A stretch of 64,000 nucleotides of DNA from the IMG/VR virus record IMGVR_UViG_3300036760_000681, positions 3,062-67,061 of that record; one strand, 5' to 3'. Below are positions 5,889 to 42,989 of the stretch, piece after piece. A program made the position numbers and the translations under genes. The notes beneath the pieces are model-generated. The model saw only the letters and a program-made list of their open reading frames with translations. It was not told the origin of the DNA and did no database searches. Position 1 is the first letter of the stretch. Every line of letters starts with the position of its first letter. The stretch is from a virus.

Positions 5889-6551
5889 CTACGCGCCTCG
5901 CTGCGCCCCGCGCGTTTCGGTAGGCTCCGGGAGGTGGGTAGCAGGCTCCGGGTCGGCGGCGCTCGGCGTTCCTGGGGCATCTTGGGAGGTCACCAGCTCG
6001 GCCGGCTCGCCCGGCGGCGGATCCCCCTTGCCGAGCTGCGCGCGCTTCGGCGCGCCGTTGAGTACCGCCAAGACATGCTCACCGCGCGCCAGGCGCTCGA
6101 CCTGTTCGTCCCCCAGGCGGCCGATGTCCAGATGTGCGATAACCCCGCTCACGTCCACCCGGTCCGACCATCCCATGTTCTTGAGCCCGAAGATGGCGCC
6201 GGCGGCGGCCCCGCCGGTATCCGCAGAGCGGAGCGCCGCCTCATAGTCCTGCTCGATCAGAGAACGCGCCTGTTTGATGGCGGTGGAATACTCTGGGTAC
6301 GTTGATCCGTATTCGTTCAGTGCTTGCCGCCCCGACATGCCCAGGTAGAGGGCTAGTCCCGTCCAGAGAATCGGCGCCGGCGGGTCACAGGCCAGGCACT
6401 CGGCTACATACCGCTCGGCCAGGTCCACCAGCTCCGCCGGCGAGCTGATACTCCGCGGCCGGCCAGGTCGCCGGTTGGGGTTCGGATCGTTCGGGTCGAG
6501 TCCGGGGCCAGGCTGGTAGGGCGCGGCCGCGGCGCGGTGGGCGGCGGTCAT
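5889..6551 (-). CDS. terS: Terminase small subunit (P22 gp3-like)
   Basis: GRPRSISSPAEL...PILWTGLALYLG...YPEYSTAIKQARSLIE...AGAIFGLKNMGWSDR. Confidence 0.85.
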   Translation of the reverse strand: MTAAHRAAAAPYQPGPGLDPNDPNPNRRPGRPRSISSPAELVDLAERYVAECLACDPPAPILWTGLALYLGMSGRQALNEYGSTYPEYSTAIKQARSLIEQDYEAALRSADTGGAAAGAIFGLKNMGWSDRVDVSGVIAHLDIGRLGDEQVERLARGEHVLAVLNGAPKRAQLGKGDPPPGEPAELVTSQDAPGTPSAADPEPATHLPEPTETRGAQRGA

Positions 6552-14448: not shown

Positions 14449-14947
14449 CTCTCCACCCCGTGGGGCGCCGAGCAGGACGGAGAACGGGTCACGTTTCGAT
14501 CTCCATTTGTCCGAATGCGAATGATTTGCGACTTGTCGCGCGACCACGAGGATGGCTTGCCGTCCTTGCTGCGCCCCGTCACGACCCACCCGTCCGCCTC
14601 GCGGCTCTCGTCGCCCAACTGCTTCATGAGCGCGTACATCTCGTCGCTCCACGGCGTTCCCCATTTGGAAATCGGCGCCGCTTCGTCGGGACCGCCTGAC
14701 AGTCTCTGTAACGAGCGGACGCCACGCGGGAAGCGCGTTCATTTCCGCCATGCGCCCGCGCCACTCAGGCATCAGCTTCAGCAGTCGGTAACAGCGCCCG
14801 AAGTCACCACAGTCTGTAGGGCACGTCCTCGAGAGCGCCTTCCTCGGACAGCCCCATCATGACGCGCCAGATGGACTTACTCGACATGCCCGTATCGTCG
14901 CCCACAATCCAGGCGAGGGCCTTGCGTGAGGGGGTGCGGGGGGTCAT
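14445..14947 (-). pseudogene. Frameshifted conserved phage hypothetical gene
   Basis: WIVGDDTGMSSKSIW, DCGDFGRCYRLLKLMPEW and EMYALMKQ fall in successive different frames. Confidence 0.5.
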
Positions 14948-24872: not shown

Positions 24873-25369
24873 GCTGCTGCCCTCCGGACCTTTCTGGCGT
24901 GGTATCCGGCTCGCGATGTGGCATTGTGACAGGTGCGGCAATACCGCTGGCCGCGGCGCAGGTTGGCCGGATCGAGGTTGTCGCCGGACAGCGAGTGGCC
25001 AGCGGGACAGTGCGTCTTCGCGGCACAGGCGGCGGCAACCGAGTTGCCCCGCAGGGTATTTTCGCGGTGCGTGACGGGGCGAACGTGGGCCGTGTTGCAG
25101 CAAGGCCGGTTGTCGCAGAAAAAGTGGTCCATCTCCATGTCGGGCGGGACTGGCCCGACCTCGCGCTCGTACCGCAGGCGATGAACCAGGTGCTTGCGTC
25201 CATTGAACCAGACGATCCCATAGCCGTCCTTGTTGCGCTGTCCCTGCCAGATATGGCACCCGCGCTCGTCTTCGACCCACCCGAGGCGGTCGGAGCGACG
25301 GAGTGACCCTTCTGTTCCGGTCAACCTGACGAGCCCCGTGCCGGGGCCGCCCAACTCTTGATCCTTCAT
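24869..25369 (-). CDS. HNH homing endonuclease
   Basis: GCHIW...GYG...HRLRYE...MDHFFCDNRPCCNTAH...THCPAGH...CRTC. Confidence 0.9.
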   Translation of the reverse strand: MKDQELGGPGTGLVRLTGTEGSLRRSDRLGWVEDERGCHIWQGQRNKDGYGIVWFNGRKHLVHRLRYEREVGPVPPDMEMDHFFCDNRPCCNTAHVRPVTHRENTLRGNSVAAACAAKTHCPAGHSLSGDNLDPANLRRGQRYCRTCHNATSRAGYHARKVRRAAA

Positions 25370-26034
25370 GATTCCAGCGCCTTTCGGAGATAGGGGTCCA
25401 CGTCGGGCTGGCGCAGAAACCAGTCCTTGTAGTCGCGCGGCACGTCGGCCATCGGCAGGCTCTTGTGCTTGCCCACGGGCATGATCGTCGGGACGCGCGC
25501 CACTTCGGACAGCGCCCACAGGTCGGCCCACGACTCGGGCTTGACCGGCAGGGTGTCCAGAATGTGGCCGAGAATGATGCGGCAGACGAACACGTCGTTC
25601 TCGGCGCTGTGGGCGCCCTTGAGCAGCGTCCGGGCGCTCGGGCGCTCCAGCAGGTAGAGGAGCGCGCCCTGCTTGTGCGAGTCCACGGCGGGCCACAGCG
25701 CGCGCGCCAGGGCGAGGGTGCAGATGCGCTTGATGTCCGGCTTGCCGATGGCGCCCCAGTCGAAGTCGATGTTGTGGCCGACGAGGTAGTCGCAGGCCGG
25801 TAGGGATGCCGACGACCACGGCTCGCACTCGGCCAAGTCTTCGTCCATGATGTGGTGCGTCGCCAGCGCGCCGAGGTCGATCGGTTTCGAGGGGCGATAG
25901 CGGTACGAGCGGATGGGGAGCTCGTCCCCAGCCTTGAAGTCGGCCAGTGGTGGCACGTAGCACCACGCCGCCTCGACGATCTCCGGCTCTTTCGTGCCGG
26001 TCGTCTCGCTGTCGAACAGGAGGGCGTCAGGCAT
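25366..26034 (-). CDS. DEDDh 3'-5' exonuclease (ExoX-like)
   Basis: FDSETTG, GHNIDFD, ICTL, AHSAEND, C-terminal MPVGKHK...PRDYKDW. Confidence 0.9.
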   Translation of the reverse strand: MPDALLFDSETTGTKEPEIVEAAWCYVPPLADFKAGDELPIRSYRYRPSKPIDLGALATHHIMDEDLAECEPWSSASLPACDYLVGHNIDFDWGAIGKPDIKRICTLALARALWPAVDSHKQGALLYLLERPSARTLLKGAHSAENDVFVCRIILGHILDTLPVKPESWADLWALSEVARVPTIMPVGKHKSLPMADVPRDYKDWFLRQPDVDPYLRKALES

Positions 26035-26233: not shown

Positions 26234-26681
26234 GCTGCGATTCTCCGGTAGTAGTAGCGCAGGGCCGCGGCTCGGTTGCATTCACGACAAAACACTTGAC
26301 GTGCAAGCGCCGCGCTTAAGGGTGTAGGTGTTCTCGTCGGAGCACGGGTGGCCGTTGCGACACTGACGCTTGTTCGCGTTGACGTTCCGGCCGCGCGCCA
26401 CGCAATCCCTGACGTTCTGCTTCTGCGTTCCCACGTAGAGATGCGCTGGATTTACACACGCCGGATTGTCGCAGTGGTGGCACACCTGGGGGCCTTTTGG
26501 CACGGGTCCGATGAAGTGCTCATAGGAGAACCGATGCGCCCCGACCTTCTTCCATGTGCCACGCACGCGCACATGGAAGATGCCGTAACCGAAGGCTGTT
26601 TTCCCGCGCGTCCACCGCCAGCAACCAGGGCTCGGAGACTTGGCGATCGCTCGCAGGAAACGGTCGATCGGCGGAACCATT
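26230..26681 (-). CDS. HNH endonuclease with its last CxxC out of frame
   Basis: GCWRW..GYG..AHRFSY..VCHHCDNPACVNPAHL..CRNGH. The final CRECNR lies in another frame after about 26290. Confidence 0.75.
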
Positions 26682-26688
26682 GGCTTGC

Positions 26689-26992
26689 TCAAAGAGTTAC
26701 GTTCGCGTTGATCGGGCCGACGCGCACGTCCGTCGCGCCCCTCGACCACGGCGTCGCTGTCGTGCTCGTCCTCGAGGTCGAGTTGGCCGACGCGCAACTG
26801 CACCGACAGGCCGGCGTCGTGCGCGACCTTCAGCGCCTCAGTCAGTTCACTGGCACACCGACGCACCCTCGCCGCCGCCTTCTTCGCCGAAGCGGTGGGA
26901 TCAGCCGCTTTGGCGCGCTTCGGCTCTGCGGTGGCGGTCTCGGCGGGCCGCTCGCCCCCTTCTGCCCAGGTCTTCTTCACATCGGTCTTCAT
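26689..26992 (-). CDS. Hypothetical protein, apparent G-run frameshift near 26740
   Basis: MKTDVKK...; removing one G from GAGGGG gives ...VEGATDVRVGPINANVTL* just before the HNH gene. Confidence 0.5.
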
Positions 26993-27234
26993 GCCTTCTC
27001 CTCGGGTGTCCAACTGCGTGAACCGTTGCGCGTCTGTCCCCTCAGTTTCGCGTTGCTCGCGTCGCGAATCCGCTGAATCTCGGCGGCGGGCAGTTTCATC
27101 GTCGCCGCGTAAATGGCCTTGATTGCGCGCCCGATCCGCACCGGGTCCGGACGGCGGTATCCCGCGGCGGCGGCGACCAGTTCGGGGGTTGGTGCGACGT
27201 GCAGCCGCGCCAGCGCCTTGCTGCTGTGGTTCAT
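26989..27234 (-). CDS. Hypothetical protein
   Basis: MNHSSKALARL...; coupled at both ends. Confidence 0.55.
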   Translation of the reverse strand: MNHSSKALARLHVAPTPELVAAAAGYRRPDPVRIGRAIKAIYAATMKLPAAEIQRIRDASNAKLRGQTRNGSRSWTPEEKA

Positions 27235-27553: not shown

Positions 27554-27757
27554 TCATAGACCCCGGCACCGGATGCAGTTGAGCAGGTGTTCCGACGCCT
27601 CCCGATCGGACTGTTCCTGTCGCCAGAGTCGGGCTGCCGCCGCCTGATCGCGCAGCGCATCCTCACGCGCGCCACAGGCAATCATCGCCATACCCAGCGC
27701 GCCGACCGTAGCGCCGACGAACAGACCCGCGAGGAAGGTGGCCACTTTACGACGCAC
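27554..27757 (-). CDS. Small membrane-anchored protein
   Basis: FLAGLFVGATVGALGMAMIAC. Confidence 0.6.
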   Translation of the reverse strand: MRRKVATFLAGLFVGATVGALGMAMIACGAREDALRDQAAAARLWRQEQSDREASEHLLNCIRCRGL

Positions 27758-27938
27758 TCGCCTTCTTGATGGCCGCGTACCGCGCGATGATCTCGTCCAG
27801 GCTCATCGAGCGCAGGAGCAGGCTGTGGTCGCGTTCGCCGGTCGCCGCCGCCACGGCGCGGGCAGCCCGCTTTTCTTCGGGGGTGACGGCCAGGTTGATC
27901 CGGGCCGCGCGGGTTTCGTTCTTTGTTGCGGCGGGCAC
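27747..27938 (-). CDS. Ribbon-helix-helix-like DNA-binding protein
   Basis: RINLAVTPEEKRAARAVAAATG; AAGGA RBS. Confidence 0.55.
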   Translation of the reverse strand: MPAATKNETRAARINLAVTPEEKRAARAVAAATGERDHSLLLRSMSLDEIIARYAAIKKASAS

Positions 27939-27981
27939 AGGTGGTTCCTTTCGTTGGTGTCATGAACTACGCGACTGAGTT

Positions 27982-28258
27982 GGGTGCTTCCCTGTTGCTG
28001 CCGCCGTCCCGAGGACGCCCCGCAAACGTGGGCGCCGCGACGATTTCGCGCCGCGTCAGACTGATGGCGGATTTGAAGCCGCTTTCACCGTTCACCGTGT
28101 CACCGTTCAAAGCTTGAACGTTCACCGTTCAGCGCCTCAACTTTGAAGTGGTGGAGTGGGCGGCACTCCGGCTATTCCGCATGAGGCCCGTTCGACGGGC
28201 GGGAGTGGGGTTGCCCCCAAGGTGTTCGCGTTTCCTCGCTGCGCTACCGAAAGCACCC
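27982..28258 (-). ncRNA. Putative structured ncRNA with internal tandem 7-8 nt repeats
   Basis: 10-bp closing stem GGGUGCUUUC/GGAAGCACCC, several internal hairpins, repeat tract at about 28069-28148. Confidence 0.65.
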
Positions 28259-28266
28259 GTTGATCC

Positions 28267-28803
28267 TCAGACCACGACGTTGGTCGTGGCGTTCTTCAGC
28301 GACAACTGCCCGTCCAGTCCGCCCTTGATCGTTTCCAGCCGCTCGATTTCGTCGGCCAGCGCCTTTTCGTCGATGTTCACCAGCACATCCTGAAGGGTGG
28401 ACGCCGACTGGCCGACCGGCACGACGGTCATCTGCTTCTGCGCGCACTGCGCCCGCACCTGCTGGAGTTGGTTGCGGAGCTGCGTGTAGAACGCCTCGCG
28501 TCCCGGCAGCACTTCGCGCCGCCACGTCAGCCAGTCGGCTAGCGTCTTGGTCACGTCGCCCGCCGTGATCGTCGTCGCGTGGTTCACGGTCTGAATCGCC
28601 GCGCGCAACGCGACGATCCGCGACTCCAGGTCGGCAATCGCCTGCATCTCGCGGGCGATGAATCCCGCCGAGCCGCCCGACTCGCTGGCGAGCGGGTCCT
28701 TGAGCCCGTCCTGCCGCGCGACATACTGCCCGATGCTCGCGCGCTTCTTCACGATGCGCGCCTGTACGGTCTTGATCTCCGCCAATGCTTCGGTGATGGT
28801 CAT
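28267..28803 (-). CDS. DIP1984/DUF6847-like coiled-coil protein
   Basis: MTITEALAEIK...AAIQTVNHATTI...LDGQLSLKNATTNV matches the family's N-terminal, middle and C-terminal pattern. Confidence 0.7.
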   Translation of the reverse strand: MTITEALAEIKTVQARIVKKRASIGQYVARQDGLKDPLASESGGSAGFIAREMQAIADLESRIVALRAAIQTVNHATTITAGDVTKTLADWLTWRREVLPGREAFYTQLRNQLQQVRAQCAQKQMTVVPVGQSASTLQDVLVNIDEKALADEIERLETIKGGLDGQLSLKNATTNVVV

Positions 28804-28858
28804 GCCTTGGCCCTTTCGCTTCAGTATCATGAGTGTTGATGAGTAACACGAAGGCGCA

Positions 28859-28886
28859 AGTATAGCACCCGCGTTGCGGGCGTCAA
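28859..28886 (-). promoter_or_regulatory. Strong sigma70-like promoter
   Basis: TTGACG-N16-TATACT with extended TG; the spacer contains the inverted repeat CCCGC-aac-GCGGG. Confidence 0.75.
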
Positions 28887-28928
28887 TAGCGGGATGGTGT
28901 CGGGGTGGTGGCGAGAAGGTGACCAACG

Positions 28929-28951
28929 CAAACGCCCACCCGAAGGTGAGC
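28929..28951 (-). terminator. Probable terminator hairpin at the end of the late operon
   Basis: GCTCACC-TTCG-GGTGGGC-GTTT (UUCG loop, short U tail). Confidence 0.55.
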
Positions 28952-28957
28952 CGTTCA

Positions 28958-29041
28958 TGGAGCTGTGGGGAATCGAACCCCGTCCAATCGACGATCTGGT
29001 GCAGCGATACGAGCGTGGCCCTTTTACGTCCGGCCAGCCCC
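28958..29041 (-). ncRNA. 84-nt tmRNA-TLD / tRNA-Ala-like RNA
   Basis: GGGGCTG...CAGCTCC-A acceptor stem with G3.U70; GGAC-GGGG-TTCGATT-CCCC T-arm. Confidence 0.55.
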
Positions 29042-29046
29042 GTTCC

Positions 29047-29628
29047 CTACGGTAGCAAGTGCCCAGCAAGTACGCCAGCCCCGGCGATCGCCACGTCGAA
29101 CAGGACGGAATGGCCCGCTCGGAGGTGCGTCACGGCCCCGGCGAGCTGGAGGACGACGCGATCGCGCTGTGCGCGGGCCTCAGAAGCCTCTGCCAGCGCG
29201 TGACTTGTGGCCTCGCGGAGCACTAGAATCAGCCGACTGACGCTATCGGCGGCTACCGAGTCGTCATGGAGGTGGCCAGCCAAAGCCGAGCCAAACGCAA
29301 CCAAAGAGGCCCGGAGCGCCACCACGCCAGCCGAATCCAGGGTCAGAACGGTATCCACGGACGGTAGGAGGCCTGGCAAGGCGGCGCCTGACGCCTGCGC
29401 ACGGCCCTGCGCCCTGCCGGCCGCCCCAGCGGCCTCCGCGACCCTTGCCGAGTCGGCGAGCCTCTGGAGGTCAGCCAGACTATCGGAGACTTGGGCAGCC
29501 TCCCGGTCCATCGCCACGCTGTCGCGGTAGGCATCGCGGAGGTGGGCACTTCCCCGACCCCCCAACAGGTAGCCCGCGCCGAACAGGCCTAGGGCGAGCA
29601 GGACGGCCCCGACGACCGACAGCTTCAC
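29047..29628 (-). CDS. Rz/i-spanin-like protein
   Basis: N-terminal TM plus coiled coil, at the end of the lysis cluster. Confidence 0.5.
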   Translation of the reverse strand: MKLSVVGAVLLALGLFGAGYLLGGRGSAHLRDAYRDSVAMDREAAQVSDSLADLQRLADSARVAEAAGAAGRAQGRAQASGAALPGLLPSVDTVLTLDSAGVVALRASLVAFGSALAGHLHDDSVAADSVSRLILVLREATSHALAEASEARAQRDRVVLQLAGAVTHLRAGHSVLFDVAIAGAGVLAGHLLP

Positions 29629-30097: not shown

Positions 30098-30378
30098 CGC
30101 CCGGAGTCCGGCAGGAGGACGCCAGCGAACGCGCGAGTCGTCCAGCCGACGATGAACCGGGTCTGGCCGGGGTCCCGGGCGACGATCTTGGCGTACCGCT
30201 TCATCTGCTGCTCGGCGAGGCGGAAGAGGACGCGCTGTTCGGCAGCGCGGGCCCGGAGGCTGTCCACGACGAGGCGTAGACTGTCACAGGCGACGGCAAC
30301 CGTTGGCGGCGGGACGGGCCTCGAGCACGCGCCGAGGCCAGCCAGAAGCGCGAGTACGACCAGCACCCTACGCACCAC
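30094..30378 (-). CDS. Lipoprotein (o-spanin candidate)
   Basis: VLVVLALLAGLGAC lipobox with Pro-rich sequence after the Cys; directly after the endolysin. Confidence 0.55.
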   Translation of the reverse strand: MVRRVLVVLALLAGLGACSRPVPPPTVAVACDSLRLVVDSLRARAAEQRVLFRLAEQQMKRYAKIVARDPGQTRFIVGWTTRAFAGVLLPDSGR

Positions 30379-30772
30379 GGCGGGCCTCCTCCAAGAACTT
30401 CTTCGCGGTACCGACACCCTGATTAACCCCAATGTCATACGCCTTCTCGGCGATCATCTGGCTCGGCTCGCTGTCCAAGTCGAGCGGATCCCAGTAGCGG
30501 GCCTTGTAGAGCGCCGCCACCAGCTCGGCCAGCTTTCCGTCGGCCATGAGCGCGGCGTCAAGCCGCTGGCGGGCGGGCTTCGGGAGATCAACCGAACTCG
30601 CGTCGCCGATGACCTTCTTCTTCGCGGCGTCCACGATGGCCCAGCCGGGCCAGTCGGGCCAGTCGCGGCGAGTGATGCCGGCCCACGTTTCTCCACCACG
30701 GTCGATTCTGTCGTTTGCGTAGCCGGCCTCGTGCGCGCTCGTCTTGGTGTGGGCCTTGAGGAAGTCGCTCAC
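30368..30772 (-). CDS. Endolysin, glycoside hydrolase family 108
   Basis: HEAGYANDRIDRGGETWAGIT...YKARYW...DIGVNQG; no separate PG-binding tail. Confidence 0.85.
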   Translation of the reverse strand: MSDFLKAHTKTSAHEAGYANDRIDRGGETWAGITRRDWPDWPGWAIVDAAKKKVIGDASSVDLPKPARQRLDAALMADGKLAELVAALYKARYWDPLDLDSEPSQMIAEKAYDIGVNQGVGTAKKFLEEARRGA

Positions 30773-31233
30773 GGCGCGGCCTTGGCTTTGAGGAACGGGA
30801 TCCGGTCGATGATCTTGTCGATGAGGCCACCGAAACCGAGGAAGCGGAAGAACGCTTCGACTGGCTCCGGGTTGAGCAGGCCGACGCCGGCCAGGAGAAT
30901 CAACCCCGGCAGCACGAAGGCGACCATGTCGCCCCACACCATGCCGCGATCCGCCTTCAGGAGCCGACCGGCGAGCGCGACCTTCTCCTGCCAGAGCCAC
31001 ACGCAGCCACCCGCTGCCGCCGGCAGGCCGAGCAGGAAATTGCGCACAACTTTGACGACGAATGTCACGGTTGGGCTAACCCCCTCCTTCGCCTCCCGAC
31101 GCCGTTTGTTCGTCACGTTGATCGCCGCCTGCACCCGCGTTGCACCCTTCGCTTCGATGAGCGCCTGCATCTGCTGCTGTGTCCCGCTGCCACCGCGTTG
31201 CGTCAGGTTGGCATTGTCGTCGGCATCGCTCAT
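30769..31233 (-). CDS. Holin-like membrane protein
   Basis: Two or three hydrophobic segments, directly upstream of the endolysin. Confidence 0.5.
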   Translation of the reverse strand: MSDADDNANLTQRGGSGTQQQMQALIEAKGATRVQAAINVTNKRRREAKEGVSPTVTFVVKVVRNFLLGLPAAAGGCVWLWQEKVALAGRLLKADRGMVWGDMVAFVLPGLILLAGVGLLNPEPVEAFFRFLGFGGLIDKIIDRIPFLKAKAAP

Positions 31234-31618: not shown

Positions 31619-34600
31619 TCATCGGGCGAGCGCCGGAGCGCGGTACTTCTGGCGCTCGGCAACGCGCTTCAGTCGCAGCGTCCGCAGCCACAACTTCTGC
31701 TCGTCCGGCGTCCCCAGGCCGTAGATCTCCTCGGCCTCGTCGAGTGTCAGTTGCTTGAAGCGTCCCAGGGTAGGGTTCTCCCGGCTCTGGCGCCAGAGGT
31801 TCTGAGCCTGTACAGCGCTCATTTCGTGCGCCCGGACGGCGCGCTGGAGATCGGGTCGGCCCCGTGTCCCGCTGCGGAGCCCTTCGAGCATGTCGGTTCG
31901 GCGCTGTGCCGTGGCCTGTTCCTGCGGGGTGCGACCCTCCGCCCGACGCCCGCCGAGGTACTCCATCATGCGGTTCTGGGCGTCGGTGCGCACATCCTCC
32001 CGCCGGGCCGGCGTGACGCCGACGAAGGACGGCAGACCGCCCGCCACACCCCCGGTGCGGCGCTTGACCTCGGCCACGTTGCGGATGCCGATCGGTACGA
32101 ATTGAGTACCGATGTACTTGGCAACCTGCTCCGCCTGCGTCACGATCGGGTCGTGTTCGTTGCGAATCTTGTCGCCGTAGTAGTCCTGGTTCTGGAGCAT
32201 CCCCATAATCATCCCGATCTCGGGGTGCAACTTGTGCGTGACCGTGCCGATCGGATGGCGCGAGTAGGCGGCGATGTCCTTCATGTAACTCGGCAACTGC
32301 ACCCGCTCGATGTTGCCTTCGCGGTCCACTTGCCCGGTCGGCGGATAGAAGTAGTCCTTCAGCGTCTCCGGCCCGTGGCCCGTGTAGAGATAGGTCATGG
32401 TAGCGCCCATCAGGCCGACCGTGATGGGCAAGGCGAGCAAGTAATCGCTGCGCGAGCTCGCCTGAAGCCGAGCTAGGTCGAGCGCGCCGCCGCCGAGTTC
32501 CCTGATCGTACCCAAATTCCAGCCGACGGCGCGCACCGAGGCCATCGACAAGTCCTTCAGGGTCCGATTCCAGAACAGGTTGTCGTAGACCATCTGGCCG
32601 AGCCGGTTGTCCACCGAGTCCCAGGAACGCTGAAGCACCGCCTTGGCCTCATCCACCGTGGCGGTCGCCGGCAACTTCTCCATCTCGTAGCGCGCCAGAT
32701 CAAAGAAGACGCCGAGCTTCTGCCGCGGCACGGCATACTCCATGATCGGCCGCGCCAACTGCTCGAGCAGCGCGGGCCCGAACGCGCCCAGCGCCGCGCC
32801 GACCAAGGCGTTGCGTCCGCGATACTCTTCGTCTGAGGCGGCGCCGATGGCAGCGCCGGCGCCCGCGCGGACAGCCAGTGCCTTGAGTCCCTTGCCGGTG
32901 CGCACCGCTTCCAGGAGCGTATGACCGGCATCGGTGCGGTAGAAGGTGTCCATCTTCACCCGACCGCCGGCCAACTCAAGCGAGTTCACCGCCTCGGCAA
33001 GCGCCTGGTCTCCGGTGCCACGCAGGTAGGCCTTCAGCAATCGGTCGCCGCGAATCAGGTTGGTGAGTGGCGCGACGGGAGTCGAGAGCGCCGTCACGGC
33101 CGCACGCAGCGGCTCGCCGCCACGCAGTTGCCGGATTCCGAGCGCCATGCGTGAAGTCGCCGCGTCCACGGAGGTAAAGCCCAAGTGGAACGCCGACAAG
33201 CCGAGTTGTGCCTGGTTCAGTGTGTTGCCGAGTCCCATGTAGGCGTCGTAGATCGGGTTGCCGCGCAGCCCCGGCGAGAGGTGGTTGTTCAGTACGTTCG
33301 CCACGGCCTCCGGCGCCCAGTATTCGCCCATGATCCGCCGGCCAGGCACCGTGACCTCGCCCGGCTCGATGTTCGCGCCCTCGGGCAAGGTCACCGCGCC
33401 CTCGCGGGGGCCGAACACGGTGGCGATGGAATCGTTGATGCGAGCGTAGCCGTCGGGAATGGTCCCGCCGGCGCGGACGTAGCGCAGGAGCCCCTGCCCT
33501 TTCAGTTCCGCGAAGGTGCGCTGCGCCATCAGGTAGCGGCGCATCTCGCGGATCTTGAGCATCGTGAGGTCGAGCGGATTCGTCGTAACCGGCGTCAGGC
33601 CGGCCGCCACGCCGTCGGCCGTGGTCGGAATGGTCCGCTGCTTCAGGAACGCCCGCGAGCCCTGCAACGGCCGGCGACTGAGGATCTGCGCGACCACCCC
33701 GCCCGCCCGATCCGGCTGCTCCCAGATGTGCGGGAAGTAGTGCTCGATGAAGTTCTCGAGTTTGCCGGTGCCGAGTTGCTGTATCTGGACCCGCGCCCGG
33801 TCGAGTTCGACGCGAATGTGGTTGGCCGCCGGCTGCAACGCCTTCGGCAGCGCGGCCACCTGGTTCGTCTCAATCGCGTCGATGAAGGCGTAGCGTTCGG
33901 TGTCGTGTAGCGGCTCGACGACCTGTCGGAACGTCCGCAGCGCCTCGGCCACGCGCTCTATGTCGTGCGCCTGAGAGCCGAGTTGCGCCCGGAGCGTCCG
34001 CGCGGCCATCGCCGCCTCGGGCGAACGCAACTGCGGGGCCAAGGTCTTGGCGATGCTCTGGCCGACCCGCGACACGCCGAAGCGTTCAACGCCGGCCCGG
34101 AGGATGCCCGGAGCGTTGGCGAGCCCGGCGCCGGCCAGCGCGCCCAAGGCCGCGCCGCGGAGCGGGTCATCCTTGTTCGTGACTGCCCCAACTGCCGCCC
34201 CACCCGCCGCGCCCGCGAGGGTGCGCAGCACGACCGGGTGCGCGCCGCCCGTCTCGTCCGGCGGCCCAGCGGACGATTGCTCGGCGTCGCCCAGAATCGA
34301 CTTGATGCTCGCATCGGCCATGTGCGCGGGCGCTTCCCAGCGACCGATCCGGTAGCCGGTCTGCGTGTCGATCACGTCAGACTCGGCGGCGCGGAATAGT
34401 TCGCCGCGGGCGTCCTTGTAGAGTTCGTAACGCTGTCCGGCGGCGTTCGTGAAGAAGGCGACGTGGCCCTTCGACTTCACCGGCTCGGCGGTGGCCTGCG
34501 GCGTCAACTCCAGCGGCGTCTCGCCCGCCGGCGTCGTACTCGGGCGCTCGGCAGCCAGTCGCGCCGTCTCCTCGGGCTGAATCTTCCCGGCCTTCAAACG

Positions 34601-37600
34601 CTCGGCGGGGCGCCCGGCGCTCTCGGGCAAGAGGCTCGTCTGTTCGCGCCCGATCCGGGCGTCCGGGCCGAGAAGATCGGTCTGGACGGCGAAGTTGTCG
34701 TGCGGGGCGCCGGCCTCGACGTTGGTCGCAGTCGGCTCCATCGCCGCCAACTTCGCCTTTGCCTCGGCTAGTCCGGGCACCGTGAGGCCTTGACCGGAGG
34801 CAGCTTCCATCATGCGGACGCGAGCCGTGAGCCCTTCGAGGTCGTCGGGGAGCGGCGAGCGGACGGGTGGGGGCTCGCTGCGGGCGACGGCAGTGCCGGG
34901 GGCCGCCGCGGTAGCACGGTGTGCACGGCCAGCCTGTTCGGCCCCGAGCGCCATCATGTCGGCCTTCTCTTCGGCCGTCAACTTGCCAATCTTCGCGAGC
35001 GTGGCGCGCATCTCACTGATGTCGGCGTCCGTCAGTAGCCGGACGTTTACTTCCGGGTCGGACGGGAGGTAGATCGGCTCCTCATTCTGACCCTGGGTGC
35101 GCACTTCGATGCCAGCCTCGCGCGCCTGCTTGTTCACGCGGGCGACGGACAACTCGTCGAGCGCCACGCCGGGTGCCGGGGTGGGTGCGGCTGGTCTGCT
35201 CTCAGGGCGCACGACGGGCTCAACCGCCGGTTCCTGCAAGAGAGGGGCTCGGCCCACGTCCGGCTGGTTCCCGGTGGAACTCGGTACACCACCTGAACCG
35301 AAATCCTGAGCGACGACACGCTGACGGTCTCCCCAAAGCCTGTCGGGCACCTGTTTCGTGGCCTGGGCAATGGCCGTCGCTTCCTCTGAGGTGACGAACC
35401 TGCCCCGATCGGTGACGTAGCCGCTTTCCATGCCCTCAGGGATGAGGCCGTCGGGCTGGGCATCCTGCGCCTTGGTCATCGCCTCGACGTGAATCTGGCC
35501 CTCGTAAACGGTGCCATCGGCGAGTTTCACGGCGGCTGACCTGATACGTTCGCCGCCAATCGGCGCGGACGTTTCAGGAACAGGCACCGGGGTCTGCGGT
35601 GCCCCGAATATGCCTTCCTGTGCGGGGTCGATGAACGGCGGGGCTACGGCTTCGGAGTTTTCGCCTGCTCCAGACTTTGCAGGTACAGCCGCGCCGCCCG
35701 CGCCGCTTGCTCCCAATCCACCGAGGTCGAGTTCGGCTCGGATGACGCCGGGGATTTGTTTGTGGGCATCGCGGACGATGTCGGCGAAATTGGCTTCTCC
35801 ACTGGCGAATCTCCTCGCGCTGTCGGTTATCAGCGTACTCATGGGGCCACTGCGCGTATAGGAACGCTGGAACATCTCTTCCAGAAGCGCGGACTGTTCC
35901 GCCGTCGCCTTCGCGGCGTCCACGTCAACGAACGACTGTCCGATCTTGCCCACATCCTCAGCGTGCGTCCCGCGCGTGAGGTAGGTGGCGAGGCGCTTGT
36001 CGGCGAGAATCCGGTTTCTCAGGGCATCGACGATTTCCGCCTTGGGGCCGACCAAGGACAACCGTTCGGCCGCGTCGTTGAAGATGACGCCCTGGTCGGT
36101 ATCGACCGGAGCAGCGACGGTCTCCTCGGCGCGGAACTGGCGGGCGATCTCTCGCATCTGGCCGTCCGTGTACTTCCGCTTCGTCTTCCGGGCGTAGGCA
36201 AGCGCCTGCCGCTGGAGGTCGGGGGCGCTCGCCAGCTCGTCGCCGATGGCGATGGCCCAACCTTCGGGCAGTTTGCCGCTCAACGCCTGCGCGTACAGGT
36301 CCGGCGTCAGGCCAGCGAGGGCACTCCCATCCCGGCCCAGGGCGTCCTTCACGTTCACGCCGAGGTCGGCAAGATCCTGCCGCGTCCGGCCCGTCTCGCG
36401 CATCCACGCCGCCATGTCGAACGGCGTTCCGTTGCCTTGGGCGATGTTGATGAGTGCGCCCGCCGCCTTGGCGTCCGCTGCCGTGGCCACCGGCAGCCGG
36501 AAGACGTTCGCGTGCGTCTGACCGAGCCGCTGGGAGTTGTTGGCGCGATTGTTCCCGTTCACGACGTATTCGTAGCCGTCGGCCGGGTCGATCCAAGTCG
36601 CCAGATTCTCGCTCGCGCCGACCAGTTGGTTGTACCGCGAGACGCCGGCCATCCGGTTCTTCTTGTCTCGACGCCACTGGAACCGCGCTTCGTCTACCCG
36701 GATGCCGTTCGGGTCGTACCAGGCATAGGGCCGCTGGACGACGGGAAGCAGGCCTACATCCTCCACCCGGAACGGCGCGCCCGGCGCCCGGCTCGGCACC
36801 TCGGGCGTCGCCATGACCCGCGCCCGCTCGGCTTCGATCTGCTGGCGCTCGGCGAGGACGTCGGGGTTGAGACCCGGCTCGGCTGGCCTGGCTGGCGGCG
36901 CGCCCTCGGGCCGCTGGATGAAGGACGGAATCTCGACGGGGGTTTCGACCACTGTCGGCCCGTAGTCCGCCAGAACGCCCGATGCCGCCGTTTCGCCGGT
37001 TCTCTGGTTCCTCCAGAGGTCGCCGTCGGCCCGTTGCCACCGACCACTGAGGGCCGGTGAGCGGGGCGCCTGCACGTCAACCGTCGTGCCGCGCGGCAAG
37101 TCGGCGAGGGCCACGGGTTCCTGTGGGGCCGCTGGACGCACGGGCTCCACGGCGGAGGCCGATGGCCTGACGAGGGGCTCGGGGGCCGCGGCGGGGCGGG
37201 TAGGCTCACCACCGCCGCCACCGCCACCGCCTCGGAACAGGCGCGCAGCCAGACCCGGAACTTCCCCGGCCGCCCCGAAAGCGCCACCCATCTCGAGTCC
37301 GGCCCTCATGCCGCCCGTCATCCGTTCGGGAATCTGCTCTGGGCGTCCTTCGGCGACCGCTGAGCCCGTCTCGAAGGTGCCGAACTTGGCGGCGTCCGTC
37401 AGGGCGCGCTCGCCCACCCGACCGATCGCCCCAAGGACGCCCGGCACGCGACCAACGAAGCCCGGAGACTTGTTCAGAACGGATCCGCCTGGCACCGCCG
37501 AGGCGGCCGTCCACCCACCCGCCAACTCGGTGAGGCCGCCGATAGTGGAACCGACGGTGCGCATCGCACGGCCGATAGGCCCTTCGTTCTGACCCGCCGC

Positions 37601-38287
37601 TGCTTCTTGTTCGGCGACCGCTTCCTTGCCGTACGCCTCCCCGGCCAAGGTGCGGTCAATGGACTCGACGATCGGGGTTGCCAGCCTCCGACCAATGGCC
37701 GACACGATGCCTGATCCTGGAATAGCGTTCGCGATCGGCGACGCCTCCACGGCCTGTCCGGCGGCGACTGCGGCCCGCGCGGGGAGGCCCACAAACAGGT
37801 CGCGGACCCCGCGGACACCGCCGGCCACGAACCTGACTGGCAGGTTACCCGAGAGGCCTGTCTCGAACTCCCGTGCGCTGGCCTGTTCCGGCGTCTCGGC
37901 CACGGCGCCGACGTTGGGCATGGCCCGTGATGCAGCGGCCACTTCCGCGTTCCCGGTGAAGTTGCTGCGCGCGAGGTCGCGACGGCGCCGGAACTCGGCG
38001 CGCGCCGCCTCATCGGACAGGCCCGAGGCGACGAGTTGGCGAATCTGATCGCCGCCGTACGGCGTGGGATTCAAGTCAACCGAGGCGGCGTCGATGGTCG
38101 GACGCGCGACGGTCAGCGCGGGGAACGAGGCAACCTGCGTCGGGGCGATTTCCCGTACCGGACCCTTGCGGACGCGGGCGAGAACGGCGAGCGGATCCTC
38201 GTCTTCCGGCGACGGCACGGCGCTGCGCTGCCGCACCCGTCTCAGAACATCGAGCGGGGACTCTTCCTGGTAATTCTGAAACGCCAC
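31619..38287 (-). CDS. Giant internal virion / ejection (large polyvalent-type) protein with a ParB-like domain
   Basis: 2222 aa, last of four internal virion genes; ParB-like segment (RFQW...W.DP.DG.EYVVNGNNR); glycine-zipper motifs. Confidence 0.75.
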   Translation of the reverse strand: MAFQNYQEESPLDVLRRVRQRSAVPSPEDEDPLAVLARVRKGPVREIAPTQVASFPALTVARPTIDAASVDLNPTPYGGDQIRQLVASGLSDEAARAEFRRRRDLARSNFTGNAEVAAASRAMPNVGAVAETPEQASAREFETGLSGNLPVRFVAGGVRGVRDLFVGLPARAAVAAGQAVEASPIANAIPGSGIVSAIGRRLATPIVESIDRTLAGEAYGKEAVAEQEAAAGQNEGPIGRAMRTVGSTIGGLTELAGGWTAASAVPGGSVLNKSPGFVGRVPGVLGAIGRVGERALTDAAKFGTFETGSAVAEGRPEQIPERMTGGMRAGLEMGGAFGAAGEVPGLAARLFRGGGGGGGGEPTRPAAAPEPLVRPSASAVEPVRPAAPQEPVALADLPRGTTVDVQAPRSPALSGRWQRADGDLWRNQRTGETAASGVLADYGPTVVETPVEIPSFIQRPEGAPPARPAEPGLNPDVLAERQQIEAERARVMATPEVPSRAPGAPFRVEDVGLLPVVQRPYAWYDPNGIRVDEARFQWRRDKKNRMAGVSRYNQLVGASENLATWIDPADGYEYVVNGNNRANNSQRLGQTHANVFRLPVATAADAKAAGALINIAQGNGTPFDMAAWMRETGRTRQDLADLGVNVKDALGRDGSALAGLTPDLYAQALSGKLPEGWAIAIGDELASAPDLQRQALAYARKTKRKYTDGQMREIARQFRAEETVAAPVDTDQGVIFNDAAERLSLVGPKAEIVDALRNRILADKRLATYLTRGTHAEDVGKIGQSFVDVDAAKATAEQSALLEEMFQRSYTRSGPMSTLITDSARRFASGEANFADIVRDAHKQIPGVIRAELDLGGLGASGAGGAAVPAKSGAGENSEAVAPPFIDPAQEGIFGAPQTPVPVPETSAPIGGERIRSAAVKLADGTVYEGQIHVEAMTKAQDAQPDGLIPEGMESGYVTDRGRFVTSEEATAIAQATKQVPDRLWGDRQRVVAQDFGSGGVPSSTGNQPDVGRAPLLQEPAVEPVVRPESRPAAPTPAPGVALDELSVARVNKQAREAGIEVRTQGQNEEPIYLPSDPEVNVRLLTDADISEMRATLAKIGKLTAEEKADMMALGAEQAGRAHRATAAAPGTAVARSEPPPVRSPLPDDLEGLTARVRMMEAASGQGLTVPGLAEAKAKLAAMEPTATNVEAGAPHDNFAVQTDLLGPDARIGREQTSLLPESAGRPAERLKAGKIQPEETARLAAERPSTTPAGETPLELTPQATAEPVKSKGHVAFFTNAAGQRYELYKDARGELFRAAESDVIDTQTGYRIGRWEAPAHMADASIKSILGDAEQSSAGPPDETGGAHPVVLRTLAGAAGGAAVGAVTNKDDPLRGAALGALAGAGLANAPGILRAGVERFGVSRVGQSIAKTLAPQLRSPEAAMAARTLRAQLGSQAHDIERVAEALRTFRQVVEPLHDTERYAFIDAIETNQVAALPKALQPAANHIRVELDRARVQIQQLGTGKLENFIEHYFPHIWEQPDRAGGVVAQILSRRPLQGSRAFLKQRTIPTTADGVAAGLTPVTTNPLDLTMLKIREMRRYLMAQRTFAELKGQGLLRYVRAGGTIPDGYARINDSIATVFGPREGAVTLPEGANIEPGEVTVPGRRIMGEYWAPEAVANVLNNHLSPGLRGNPIYDAYMGLGNTLNQAQLGLSAFHLGFTSVDAATSRMALGIRQLRGGEPLRAAVTALSTPVAPLTNLIRGDRLLKAYLRGTGDQALAEAVNSLELAGGRVKMDTFYRTDAGHTLLEAVRTGKGLKALAVRAGAGAAIGAASDEEYRGRNALVGAALGAFGPALLEQLARPIMEYAVPRQKLGVFFDLARYEMEKLPATATVDEAKAVLQRSWDSVDNRLGQMVYDNLFWNRTLKDLSMASVRAVGWNLGTIRELGGGALDLARLQASSRSDYLLALPITVGLMGATMTYLYTGHGPETLKDYFYPPTGQVDREGNIERVQLPSYMKDIAAYSRHPIGTVTHKLHPEIGMIMGMLQNQDYYGDKIRNEHDPIVTQAEQVAKYIGTQFVPIGIRNVAEVKRRTGGVAGGLPSFVGVTPARREDVRTDAQNRMMEYLGGRRAEGRTPQEQATAQRRTDMLEGLRSGTRGRPDLQRAVRAHEMSAVQAQNLWRQSRENPTLGRFKQLTLDEAEEIYGLGTPDEQKLWLRTLRLKRVAERQKYRAPALAR

Positions 38288-41849: not shown

Positions 41850-42989
41850 CTAGGGAATCGTCTGCAACATGCCACAGCTACCGGCCTTCACCGTCACGGT
41901 GCTGGCGTTGATCTCGCTTCGCACGCGCGCCTGCAAGGTGCCATTCGCGCTCGGCGTACACTGTCCGCTGATGATGGCGAGGTAATTGGTGTTCGCCGCC
42001 TGAACGCCCGTGCCGATCACTAGGTCGTCGCTCGCCGTGATCCAGCCCTGCCACTCGCCCGCGGCCGCATCGGCGGCAATCGGGATCAGCGCTTTCGCCG
42101 CGAAGACCGTCATCGCCGGGAACGTGACGGACAACCCGATGCCCGTGGTGGTGGCCGCGCTCTGGAAAACGATCCGAAACTCGAAGGCGTAGGTCACGCT
42201 GGCCGTCAGGGCGAAACTCAACCCGGCGATGTCGCTCGGCGTGGTACTGGAACTGTTGGCCGTGTCGCCCGTCGCACGGCAGGTTGCCGGGCCGCCGGGG
42301 CCGGCTGGCCCCTGAATACCTTGCGTCCCCTGCGCGCCAGCGTTGCCCTGTATCCCCTGCGGTCCCTGCGGTCCCTGCGGTCCCGGTACGGTCGAGTCCG
42401 CGCCGGCTGGACCCTGTGGACCTGTCGTTCCGACCGCGCCGTCCGAACCTGCTGGTCCCGTAGGACCGGCCGGGCCTTGAACCCCTTGGATGCCCTGCGC
42501 TCCCGCGGCCCCCGCAGTTCCTTGTGCACCGGCGGCGCCGGCTGGCCCTTGGGGACCCGGAACGACCGAGTCGGCCCCTGCGGGCCCCTGGGGCCCTTGC
42601 GCACCGACCGGCCCCGTAGCGCCATCGAGCCCGGGGGCGCCCGGACTTCCAGCGGGTCCCTGTGGACCTTGCTGGCCCAGTGCGCCGTCGGAACCTGAGA
42701 CGCCTTGAGGGCCCGCGTCTCCGGCCGGACCCTGTGCACCGACAGAGCCGGGAGGTCCCTGTGGTCCAGTGGACCCATCGGCGCCGGGCGGTCCGGAGAT
42801 ACCCTGCGGACCTGGCGCCCCATCGGCCCCTGTGGGGCCTTGTGGTCCGACCCCTCCCGCGCCCCCAGAGCCCGAACAGATCGCCTTCAGCGCATCGTAT
42901 CCCTGAATGGGTAGGTAGACGACCTCGCGCTCGATGGACCCGCCGCCTGACGGCATGATGAAGATTCGGATGAACCGCGTGTCGTCCAT
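41850..42989 (-). CDS. Collagen-like fibre protein
   Basis: About 60 contiguous G-X-Y triplets and a C-terminal beta-rich head. Confidence 0.85.

What the first reader, a model, noticed from the sequence alone, without database searches (positions are those of the whole stretch)
27982..28886. Candidate new RNP system: DIP1984-like coiled-coil gene followed by a closed ncRNA displaying about 10 tandem repeats
Seen: a near-consensus promoter drives a 178-aa coiled-coil gene. Eight nt after its stop, a 277-nt element begins, closed by a 10-bp stem GGGUGCUUUC/GGAAGCACCC; its G.U pair works only on the minus strand. The 5' domain has GGGG-GCAA-CCCC, GCCCG/CGGGC and CACUCC/GGAGUG stems. The 3' domain has CGCGGCG/CGUCGCG and CGUCC/GGACG stems. 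Between them is the tract UUCAAAG UUGAGGCG CUGAACG GUGAACG UUCAAGCU UUGAACG GUGACACG GUGAACG GUGAAAGC GGC UUCAAAUCC. Known: oligomeric proteins such as TRAP and Hfq bind periodic short RNA repeats, and type III toxin-antitoxin and sponge RNAs use repeats. Inference: the RNA templates or titrates an oligomer of the adjacent protein, as a protein-RNA toxin-antitoxin pair, a scaffold, or a switch for the early operon that continues downstream. I know of no described function for this pairing.
Basis: partly seen in the sequence, partly recalled or inferred. Interest (0 to 1): 0.85.

Follow-up and report, generated by a model that had tools for sequence, protein, structure and literature searches.

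The report
Phage protein–RNA module with heptad loop
A small helical phage protein is always encoded next to a previously undescribed, intricately folded ~280-nt RNA that holds out a loop of about eleven 7-base repeats, which looks like a new kind of viral RNA-protein particle whose job is still unknown.

Summary
The window is a complete 67-kb phage genome. Promoter TTGACG-16-TATACT (28886-28859, minus) drives a 178-aa gene (28803-28267). AlphaFold confidence for the protein is pLDDT 96, and its only structural relative is 3KDQ, a C. diphtheriae protein of unknown function. Eight nt after the stop lies a 277-nt RNA (28258-27982, minus).

Protein relatives were followed by the same RNA in 66 of 68 viral loci and 12 of 14 MAG loci. 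All four misses are contigs that end too early. No other neighbouring gene is shared.

On 55 distinct RNAs, 35 pairs in 6 helices are 91% paired, against 63% when shuffled and 36-46% when slid. A pseudoknot and a GNRA-capped hairpin also covary.

The core closes a length-conserved, unpaired 77-81-nt tract of U-N-A-A-(A/C)-G-(C/U) heptads with period 7. In 21 of 62 elements a complete tRNA of varying identity is inserted at one fixed site.

Rfam 15 has no match, and my literature searches found nothing. The protein is predicted to form a homodimer.

Best reading (about 0.55): a two-part RNP in which the protein assembles on the heptad loop. Its cellular role is unknown. It is not a type III toxin-antitoxin pair, not an RHH operator array and not a known RNA family.

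The parts
28859..28886 (-). Sigma-70-type promoter TTGACG-16-TATACT (extended -10 TG) that drives the module.
   Evidence: 10 of 12 matches; 2 sites found against 0.2 expected in shuffles
28267..28803 (-). Gene for the 178-aa four-helix protein with a beta-hairpin. It is a distant relative of DIP1984/DUF6847 and is predicted to form a homodimer.
27982..28258 (-). The whole 277-nt structured ncRNA, a member of a family of at least 55 distinct aligned sequences.
   Evidence: 3'-domain model R1 hits 28087-27981 at 81 bits
28243..28258 (-). 5' strands of closing helices P1 (GGGUGCUUUCG) and P2 (GUAGC).
   Evidence: helix 1: 12 pairs, 9 with changes on both sides, 90.7% of cells paired
28230..28242 (-). 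Conserved junction J (family consensus GCGAAGUGAGAAA). Its GAGGA (28237-28233) is the 5' strand of the pseudoknot.
28150..28229 (-). Variable insert domain. Here it holds small hairpins. In 21 of 62 relatives it holds a complete tRNA.
28071..28149 (-). Unpaired tract of about 11 heptads, U-N-A-A-(A/C)-G-(C/U), ending in UUCAAAU. It is 79 nt here and 77-81 nt in 47 of 55 relatives.
28001..28070 (-). 3' domain:
- P3: CCGCC 28070-28066 with GGCGG 28005-28001.
- P4: GUCU 28061-28058 with GGAC 28009-28006.
- Hairpin a: 28055-28036, with GNRA loop GAAA at 28047-28044.
- Hairpin b: 28035-28015.
- Pseudoknot 3' strand: UCCUC 28015-28011.
27982..27998 (-). 3' strands of P2 (GCAAC) and P1 (AGGGAAGCACCC).

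Best explanation
This is a self-contained two-part phage module: one protein gene and one non-coding RNA, transcribed together from a strong promoter.

The RNA folds into a compact core made of closing helices P1/P2, a pseudoknot between the 5' junction and the 3' domain, helices P3/P4 and a GNRA-capped hairpin. That core ties together the two ends of a single-stranded tract of fixed length, about 77-81 nt, made of roughly eleven U-N-A-A-(A/C)-G-(C/U) heptads. One fixed site in the core tolerates cargo and often carries a full tRNA.

Shown here: the RNA family, its structure, the heptad periodicity and the strict coupling to the protein.

Inferred: the protein, predicted to be a symmetric dimer of four-helix bundles, is the ligand of the heptads. 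Several copies would line up on the loop, about one binding site per 7 nt, to give an RNP of defined size.

The RNP's role is unknown. The module sits in accessory regions next to tRNA genes, and it occurs in phages found in MAGs assigned to many bacterial phyla. This makes a host-directed role (anti-defence, or interference with tRNA or translation) more likely than a role in virion structure.
For: 1. Coupling.
- 66 of 68 viral loci found through the protein carry the RNA on the same strand. The 2 misses hold only 238 and 24 nt downstream.
- 57 of these hits are full length (54 distinct sequences) and 9 are partial.
- 45 of the 66 start within 45 nt of the end of the protein match, 19 start 82-464 nt downstream, and 2 lie upstream.
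- 12 of 14 MAG loci carry it; the 2 misses hold 0-4 nt downstream.
- Among same-strand ORFs of 70 loci (68 viral loci, the pVp-1 locus and the window), only this protein family is shared, in 69. The next family occurs in 6.
- In an RNA-first scan with a 15-mer, 6 of 80 fetched loci held the RNA, and all 6 had the protein next to it. Five of those six contigs were already known.

2. Structured RNA.
- 35 pairs are 91.1% paired against 62.7% when shuffled (0 of 500 shuffles reach it) and 36-46% when slid.
- The covariation score is 0.775, against 0.226 shuffled and at most 0.142 slid. 31 of 35 pairs change on both sides.
- The pseudoknot is 91.6% paired, against 81.7% shuffled and at most 66.9% slid.
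- Conserved U.G pairs (45 of 55 at columns 19/491) fix the strand.

3. Heptads.
- Autocorrelation peaks at lags 7, 14, 21-22 and 29, and the tract is 77-81 nt in 47 of 55.
- There are 372 sites in 55 RNAs, and the spacing is exactly 7 in 174 of 317 neighbouring pairs.
- Positions U1, A4 and G6 are kept from 36% to 66% GC. A3 was fixed by the site-picking matrix.
- The tract is unpaired in the consensus fold.

4. Protein self-association.
- The homodimer scores ipSAE 0.76 against a best control of 0.00. That mark was reached by 20 of 30 proteins solved as pairs of one chain and by 1 of 23 solved as single chains.
- The runs agree in at least 98% of contacts, and the partner's pLDDT is at least 92.
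- The pass could reflect the model's memory of the related entry 3kdq.

5. Conserved basic residues K11, R16, K20, R62, R95, R96 and R117 are not named in the predicted dimer interface.

6. One 229-nt contig from a metatranscriptomic library lies wholly inside the RNA, 93% identical over 27992-28171. This is a weak hint only, because the library may contain DNA.
Against: - No binding evidence of any kind exists; the link is genomic only.
- The protein family is near neutral (median pI 7.8, median net charge +1). No RNA-binding domain was found by Pfam, NCBIfam, PHROGs or Foldseek.
- A two-fold symmetric dimer does not obviously match an odd count of about 11 repeats.
- In 2 loci the RNA lies 0.9-1.5 kb upstream of the gene, and in 19 it is separated from it by 82-464 nt, in some cases by a small ORF (seen). 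Tight translational or cis coupling is therefore not required.
- Position 2 of the heptad is free and position 5 drifts with GC content.
- The heptad sites were picked with a matrix learned from the same data, which is partly circular.
- Co-inheritance would also arise if the two parts acted on one common host target without touching each other.
Confidence: 0.55

Rival explanations
1. Decoy or sponge for a host factor. The heptad loop would titrate a host RNA-binding protein, an RNase, or a defence nuclease that targets tRNA. The neighbouring protein would act beside the RNA, for example as a chaperone, stabiliser or effector, and would not be the ligand of the repeats.
For: - Repeat-bearing sponge RNAs are an established kind (CsrB/RsmZ, CrcZ; recalled).
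- The module lies among tRNA genes in several relatives: 14 of 62 loci have further tRNAs within 2.5 kb, and the pVp-1 locus has 4 tRNAs just upstream.
- In T5-like phages the tRNA region holds anti-defence genes (10.1101/2023.03.15.532788, sections 3-4 read).
- The protein is not basic.
Against: - A sponge for a host protein would not need a strictly co-inherited phage protein.
- The module occurs in MAGs of at least 7 named higher taxa, so the host target would have to be nearly universal.
- The heptads lack the GGA motif of CsrA sites and do not form contiguous A-R-N triplets as Hfq sites do (the motifs are recalled).
Confidence: 0.2
2. Stable RNA of the phage tRNA apparatus. The element would be a carrier or processing scaffold that ensures expression and maturation of a tRNA or tRNA-like cargo, or that acts on translation. 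It would be comparable to the stable RNAs found in phage tRNA clusters, or to GOLLD with its linked tRNAs. The heptads would be processing or ribosome-contact sites.
For: - 21 of 62 distinct elements embed a full tRNA of at least 11 different identities at one fixed site. Several others keep T-arm-like hairpins there.
- An 87-nt tmRNA-like tRNA-like domain lies 70 nt upstream of the promoter.
- L060 has a tmRNA about 2.2 kb upstream.
- GOLLD and ROOL are phage RNAs near tRNA islands, and tRNAs sometimes sit in the GOLLD linker (10.1101/2024.12.08.627333, passages).
Against: - About two thirds of the elements, including the window's, carry no ARAGORN-called tRNA. This phage has no tRNA gene at all.
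- The conserved parts are the core and the heptads, not the cargo.
- This reading does not explain the obligatory protein.
Confidence: 0.1
3. Cis-acting 3'-UTR or operon element. The RNA would autoregulate or stabilise the protein's mRNA, or control read-through into the early genes downstream (RHH, HNH, exonuclease, Erf).
For: - The element lies inside the leftward operon, between the first gene and the RHH gene, and no terminator follows it in this window.
Against: - Two relatives read by eye (L008 and pVp-1) have a terminator-like hairpin right after the element.
- Downstream genes are not conserved.
- In 2 loci the RNA is upstream of the gene.
- A pseudoknotted core with a GNRA hairpin and a cargo site is more than a typical UTR element would need.
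Confidence: 0.07
4. Type III-like toxin-antitoxin pair: the protein would be a toxin that the repeat RNA neutralises.
For: - It is an adjacent pair of a protein gene and a repeat RNA.
Against: - The gene order is reversed: the RNA is downstream in 64 of 66 viral loci.
- The repeats are 7 nt long, not about 34-45 nt (the sizes of known units are recalled).
- The protein is a helical bundle with no nuclease family hit and no PADLOC hit.
- The repeats sit inside a single large structured RNA with cargo.
Confidence: 0.04
5. DNA-level element: the heptads would be operators for the RHH protein (27747-27938), or iterons or a centromere, as with the omega or ParG heptad/octad arrays.
For: - RHH proteins such as omega bind contiguous 7-bp repeats (recalled).
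- An RHH-like gene starts 133 nt downstream of the repeat tract (NikA-like, E 0.031).
Against: - The RHH gene is not a conserved neighbour.
- The tract is embedded in a strand-specific covarying RNA with conserved U.G pairs.
- No promoter-like site overlaps the tract.
- There is no second cluster in the genome.
Confidence: 0.02

Closest known systems
TRAP bound to the trp leader RNA (Bacillus)
   Same: A single-stranded array of about 11 short, regularly spaced sequence repeats is the proposed docking site for several identical protein subunits. This is what the module may work like.
   Different: TRAP sites are (G/U)AG triplets with 2-3-nt spacers in an mRNA leader, and TRAP is an 11-mer beta-sandwich ring (recalled). 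Here the repeats are heptads inside a dedicated, pseudoknot-closed ncRNA, the protein is a helical bundle predicted to be a dimer, and no attenuation target is evident.
Sponge RNAs CsrB/RsmY/RsmZ and CrcZ
   Same: These are ncRNAs whose function lies in many copies of one short motif that sequester a protein.
   Different: Their motifs (GGA in hairpin loops; A-rich A-R-N runs) are absent here (motifs recalled). Their ligands are host global regulators encoded elsewhere, whereas this RNA is inherited together with its neighbouring gene.
GOLLD and ROOL phage RNAs
   Same: They are large, ornate, covarying ncRNAs of phages and prophages with unknown function, often near tRNA islands. tRNAs sometimes sit inside GOLLD (10.1101/2024.12.08.627333, passages).
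   Different: Neither Rfam model matches. This RNA is smaller at about 255-375 nt, has a repeat tract, and has an obligatory protein neighbour. The cited paper reports no protein partner for ROOL and homo-oligomeric RNA cages for both.
Type III toxin-antitoxin systems (ToxIN, CptIN, TenpIN)
   Same: A protein gene sits next to a tandem-repeat RNA, and the systems are phage-related.
   Different: Gene order, repeat length, protein fold and RNA architecture all differ (see the membership test).
DIP1984 / DUF6847 ('putative septicolysin') proteins; PDB 3kdq
   Same: It is the only structural relative (Foldseek probability 1.0, TM 0.52-0.59). Atlas structure neighbours are labelled DIP1984 or septicolysin (TM 0.54-0.69). 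Cellular DUF6847 genes also have a conserved non-coding stretch downstream.
   Different: Sequence scores fall below the curated cutoffs. The phage proteins are about 25 aa longer. The cellular downstream stretch is not matched by the phage RNA models. No function is known for either: searches for DIP1984, DUF6847 and septicolysin (search listings only) showed no functional study in the titles and abstracts listed.
tmRNA and bacterial Y RNAs (YrlA)
   Same: These are modular RNAs that join a tRNA-like module to a second functional module, closed by pairing of the 5' and 3' ends.
   Different: There is no Rfam match for the element. It has no tag reading frame, and no Ro/TROVE or SmpB partner was seen. 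The tRNA module is optional cargo here.

Membership tests
Any Rfam 15 family (4227 models) | Score at or above the family's gathering threshold over the element. | tested here: not met
   - Whole window at gathering threshold: 0 hits.
- 27900-29100 at E<=10: nothing on the element better than E 2.
- 20 related loci: only tRNAs and one tmRNA.
Type III toxin-antitoxin | The repeat RNA is encoded upstream of the toxin gene. | tested here: not met
   The RNA is downstream of the gene in 64 of 66 viral loci and in 12 of 12 MAG loci.
Type III toxin-antitoxin | Repeat units of tens of nt that each fold and bind one toxin. | tested here: not met
   The unit is 7 nt and is unpaired in the consensus. 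The size of known units is recalled.
Type III toxin-antitoxin | The toxin is a ToxN/AbiQ-type endoribonuclease. | tested here: not met
   No such Pfam, NCBIfam or PADLOC hit. The fold is a four-helix bundle whose only PDB relative is 3kdq.
Type III toxin-antitoxin | The protein is toxic and the RNA neutralises it. | not testable with these tools
   Needs expression tests.
TRAP-type RNA binding | (G/U)AG triplet repeats and a TrpBP-fold 11-mer. | tested here: not met
   The heptad matrix is U-N-A-A-(A/C)-G-(C/U). There is no TrpBP hit and the fold is helical.
CsrA/RsmA sponge RNA | Multiple GGA motifs presented in hairpin loops. | tested here: not met
   The heptads lack GGA, and the tract is unpaired in the consensus.
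DIP1984 family (NF038048) / DUF6847 (PF20935) | Whole-protein score over the curated cutoff. | tested here: not met
   18.2 bits against a cutoff of 70; 18.7 against 27.
DIP1984 family (NF038048) / DUF6847 (PF20935) | Same fold as the solved member. | tested here: met
   Foldseek hit to 3kdq_A: E 2.8e-3, probability 1.00, TMq 0.52, TMt 0.59, over 177 columns at rmsd 9.1 A. This is a loose match. Atlas neighbours agree. That 3kdq is DIP1984 itself is recalled.
RHH operator / heptad centromere (omega- or ParG-like) | The repeat array co-occurs with the RHH gene and overlaps its promoter. | tested here: not met
   The RHH gene is not shared between loci, and no promoter-like site lies in the tract.
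GOLLD / ROOL | Match to RF-model consensus structure. | tested here: not met
   No hit.

The most novel reading that the evidence does not exclude
The RNA would be a molecular template. A pseudoknot-locked loop of about eleven heptads would nucleate a closed or length-limited assembly of the DIP1984-fold protein. This would resemble a TRAP ring or a viral nucleocapsid, but with the RNA setting the stoichiometry, and it would give a new class of phage RNP that can also carry a tRNA.

By extension, the whole DIP1984/DUF6847 ('septicolysin') superfamily, cellular members included, would consist of RNA-partnered proteins. Fourteen cellular genes examined also have a conserved non-coding stretch downstream (13 of 14 with the full 3' block).
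Probability: 0.3. Interest if true: 0.92.

Novelty: categorically new. Interest (0 to 1): 0.85.

Why it matters
If the reading holds, this is a new, widespread class of structured viral RNA with an obligatory protein partner.

- Scale and spread. At least 992 protein clusters match the family. It occurs in phage contigs and in MAGs assigned to Proteobacteria, Chloroflexota, Planctomycetota, Acidobacteriota, Gemmatimonadota, Armatimonadota and Clostridium.
- A function for an orphan family. It would give the first functional handle on the DIP1984/DUF6847 protein family, whose crystal structure has had no assigned function since 2009.
- A new RNA design principle. The RNA has a rigid pseudoknotted core that displays a length-fixed loop of heptads, plus a site that accepts whole tRNAs.
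- A directly testable system. The module is only two parts and about 0.9 kb, so it can be synthesised and expressed in a laboratory strain. Binding, stoichiometry, structure by cryo-EM, toxicity and anti-defence activity all become testable.
- A practical use. As a natural RNA scaffold with a cargo site, it may also interest RNA nanotechnology.

Tried and rejected
- Coding repeat. Rejected. A 7-nt period is not a multiple of 3, the autocorrelation has no 3-nt signal, and the flanks covary as RNA.
- Rad anti-retron protein of T5 (10.1101/2023.03.15.532788). It is a different protein: 189 aa and described as TOPRIM-like. My tblastn found only 5 Vibrio phage records and no T5.
- DNA similarity to cultured phages. 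None found.
- PDB sequence search with the protein profile. Nothing below E 0.077.
- PADLOC. No hit.
- Vibrio phage pVp-1. By eye the 367-nt gap after gp069 has the same layout: closing stem, junction, about 12 heptads, AAAAUCCCAG...CUGGGCUGC, then a terminator. It folds with a 14-bp closing stem, z -2.2. Neither nhmmer (which hit only a tRNA) nor the 3'-domain model R1 detects it, so I count it as a probable diverged variant and not as a member.
- Divergent loci L057, L066 and L078. They have only partial nhmmer hits in the heptad region and no R1 hit. L050 and L058 have weak R1 hits (26.6 and 20.7 bits).
- Cellular DUF6847 loci. Neither the phage nhmmer profile (a tRNA-part hit only) nor R1 matches. 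RNAalifold on a MAFFT alignment gave 8 pairs with 1 covarying, so a structure is not established.
- Sequencing runs. DNA runs X2 and X3 held only short, unrelated-looking fragments at under 90% identity, and nothing is concluded from them. Uncovered parts in the RNA run X5 are not evidence of absence.
- Supplementary files of papers were closed. A motif listed only in a supplement of an RNA-discovery paper (for example PMC5737381 or PMC8040213, seen as search listings only) and never deposited in Rfam would have been missed.
Full report
**What the window is.** The window is bases 3062-67061 of a 67,061-bp virus record with direct terminal repeats, rated complete. Nearly all genes lie on the minus strand. 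PHROG hits place virion and lysis genes to the right of the finding: portal-like 58731-60998, tail fibre 41850-42989 and endolysin 30368-31000. Recombination and replication genes lie to its left: HNH 26282-27013, DnaQ-like exonuclease 25366-26034, Erf-like annealing protein from about 24063, and a methyltransferase at 13117-14772. The finding is therefore the first unit of a leftward block that starts at its own promoter.

**The observation.**
- The promoter TTGACG-16-TATACT with an extended -10 lies at 28886-28859.
- The gene 28803-28267 encodes 178 aa.
- Eight bases after the stop, a 277-nt element (28258-27982) is closed by GGGUGCUUUC/GGAAGCACCC. Its one U.G pair exists only on the minus strand.
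- The minus strand folds 2 sd better than shuffles (z -2.0) and the plus strand does not (z -0.74).
- The repeat tract is real. It holds 8 strong heptads at spacings of 7-8, or 15 where a weak unit lies between, and it is the densest such cluster in the 64 kb.

**The protein.**
- Sequence matches to DIP1984_fam, DUF6847 and DUF4407 all fall below their cutoffs.
- PHROG 1491 matches at E 5e-16. Its label 'tail fiber protein' may trace to one RefSeq annotation of Vibrio phage pVp-1 (my inference).
- AlphaFold2 on 59 relatives gives pLDDT 96 and pTM 0.80, with four helices and a beta-hairpin.
- Foldseek finds only 3kdq, a Corynebacterium diphtheriae protein of unknown function: E 2.8e-3, probability 1.0, TM 0.52-0.59. 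Every other hit has E of at least 0.66.
- The ESM Atlas places the protein in mostly viral clusters. More distant structural neighbours are labelled 'DIP1984 family protein' or 'putative Septicolysin'.
- The family is large: 992 clusters at E<=0.001 among the 8000 candidates scored. The listed members are almost all unnamed or 'hypothetical protein'.
- It is near neutral, with median pI 7.8.
- A homodimer is predicted: ipSAE 0.76, best control 0.00. The mark was reached by 20 of 30 proteins solved as pairs of one chain and 1 of 23 solved as single chains. The runs agree in at least 98% of contacts and the pLDDT is at least 92. Because a related structure is solved, the pass may reflect likeness to it.

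**The RNA is a family.** Downstream of all nine first relatives I saw the same layout by eye.
- A profile scan gave 68 viral loci.
- An iterated nhmmer profile then hit 66 of the 68 on the gene's strand. The two misses are truncated contigs. Of the hits, 57 are full length (54 distinct) and 9 are partial.
- 45 of the 66 begin within 45 nt of the protein match, 19 begin 82-464 nt downstream (small ORFs intervene in those inspected), and 2 lie 0.9-1.5 kb upstream.
- In 14 MAG contigs from very different phyla, 12 of the 12 with downstream DNA carry the RNA.
- No other gene family is shared among the loci.
- A weak RNA-first check with a 15-mer scan found 6 RNAs in 80 fetched loci, all next to the gene. 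Five of those contigs were already known.

**Structure.** On 55 distinct sequences (A2), RNAalifold predicts six helices: P1, P2, P3, P4, hairpin a and hairpin b. It leaves the tract unpaired.
- Counting gives 91.1% of cells paired, against 62.7% in shuffles (0 of 500 reach it) and 36-46% with slid partners.
- The covariation score is 0.775, against 0.226 shuffled and at most 0.142 slid. 31 of 35 pairs change on both sides.
- Hairpin a is capped by GAGA, GAAA, GUAA or GCAA with covarying closing pairs, so it is a GNRA tetraloop.
- I then noticed that junction bases GAGA(R) can pair with (Y)UCUC inside the 3' domain. This pseudoknot is 91.6% paired, against 81.7% shuffled (0 of 500) and at most 66.9% slid. 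At one position the pairs are A-U:30, G-C:15 and G-U:8. The window itself shows the compensated form GAGGA/UCCUC.
- The two ends of the repeat tract are therefore clamped by a compact, knotted core.

**The tract.**
- Its length between fixed alignment columns is 77-81 nt in 47 of 55 sequences. Self-similarity peaks at lags 7, 14, 21-22 and 29.
- The learned matrix is U(0.88)-N-A-A(0.86)-A/C(0.74/0.20)-G(0.73)-C/U. A3 was already near-fixed by the seed. There are 372 sites, and 174 of 317 neighbour spacings are exactly 7.
- U1, A4 and G6 persist from 36% to 66% GC, while positions 2, 5 and 7 drift. The site picking is partly circular.

**Cargo.** At one site between the junction and the tract, 21 of 62 distinct elements hold a complete tRNA: Arg, Ile, Thr, Ser, Leu, Val, Glu, Gln, Lys, His or Tyr. 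Others keep T-arm-like hairpins there. The window has small hairpins there and no tRNA anywhere.

**Not a known family.** Rfam 15 gives nothing on the element in the window, either at gathering threshold or below it down to E 2. In 20 relatives it finds only tRNAs and a tmRNA. Literature searches for DIP1984, DUF6847, septicolysin, heptamer-repeat phage ncRNAs and phage RNA-motif surveys (listings and abstracts only) returned no description. Supplements were closed.

**Expression.** One 229-nt contig of a metatranscriptomic library lies entirely within the element (27992-28171 at 93% identity, then a diverged insert domain). Nothing from that run was laid on the flanking genes. This is a weak hint at most, since such libraries can hold DNA.

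**Interpretation.**
- Shown: a two-part module made of a protein gene and a pseudoknotted ncRNA that displays about 11 unpaired heptads. It is inherited as a unit across very diverse phages.
- Inferred: the protein binds the heptads as an array of dimers or a larger assembly. Co-inheritance with nothing else, the fixed tract length and the predicted self-association favour this. The neutral charge, the lack of any RNA-binding signature and the odd repeat count argue for caution. I put it at about 0.55.
- Rivals are a host-factor decoy (0.2), a tRNA-apparatus RNA (0.1), a cis element (0.07), a type III-like toxin-antitoxin pair (0.04) and DNA operators (0.02). The reasons are given under each.

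**Verdict.** I rate the novelty as categorically new, because neither the RNA nor the pairing fits any described family or system that I could test. The general idea of a repeat RNA organising a protein has precedents (TRAP, Csr).

Noticed in passing
window 28955-29041 (-), with hairpin 28951-28934 (-): An 87-nt tmRNA-like tRNA-like domain matches RF00023 at 26.7 bits, below the gathering score of 47 (E 9e-9). It has acceptor stem GGGGCUG/CAGCUCC with a G3:U70 pair, T arm GGGGUUCGAUUCCCC, and no tag region. It is followed by a terminator-like hairpin and lies just upstream of the module's promoter. ARAGORN does not call it. It could be a minimal alanine-type tRNA mimic or an attP-like remnant.
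   Followed up: partly
L187-L200 and L202 (cellular genomes), about 1-260 nt after the stop of each DUF6847 gene: 15 of 301 sampled genomes of one phylum carry a canonical DUF6847 gene. In 13 of 14 genes examined, the downstream 200-260 nt share these blocks:
- GGUAGC
- GGCGAGYAC
- a T-arm-like hairpin in some
- ACUACC..CUGA
- GUGAGGGYGGG-N3-4-GGGG
L202 lacks the last block. There is no Rfam hit and no match to the phage models. Covariation is not established. This may be a second, cellular RNA partnered with the same protein superfamily.
   Followed up: partly
L079 3619-3985 (Vibrio phage pVp-1, NC_019529 46286-46652): The unannotated 367-nt gap after gp069, which is labelled 'tail fiber protein' and is 28% identical to the window's protein, has a 14-bp closing stem, about 12 UUAAGUA-like heptads and a terminator. 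It is probably a diverged version of the module in a cultured T5-like phage. Four tRNAs lie just upstream. The RNA models do not detect it.
   Followed up: partly
L060 1-287: A bona fide tmRNA (72.9 bits, cut by the locus end) lies about 2.2 kb upstream of the module in a 132-kb viral contig.
   Followed up: no
L040 (= L008) 208-6133: The module sits inside an array of 17 tRNA genes in this relative.
   Followed up: no
window 31619-38287 (-): A 2222-aa ORF whose only PHROG match is a 200-residue stretch (529-725) to a 'portal protein' family. The rest is unassigned.
   Followed up: no
L048 and L071: In these two loci the RNA lies 1.5 kb and 0.9 kb upstream of the protein gene instead of downstream. 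The two parts can therefore be rearranged and still stay linked.
   Followed up: no
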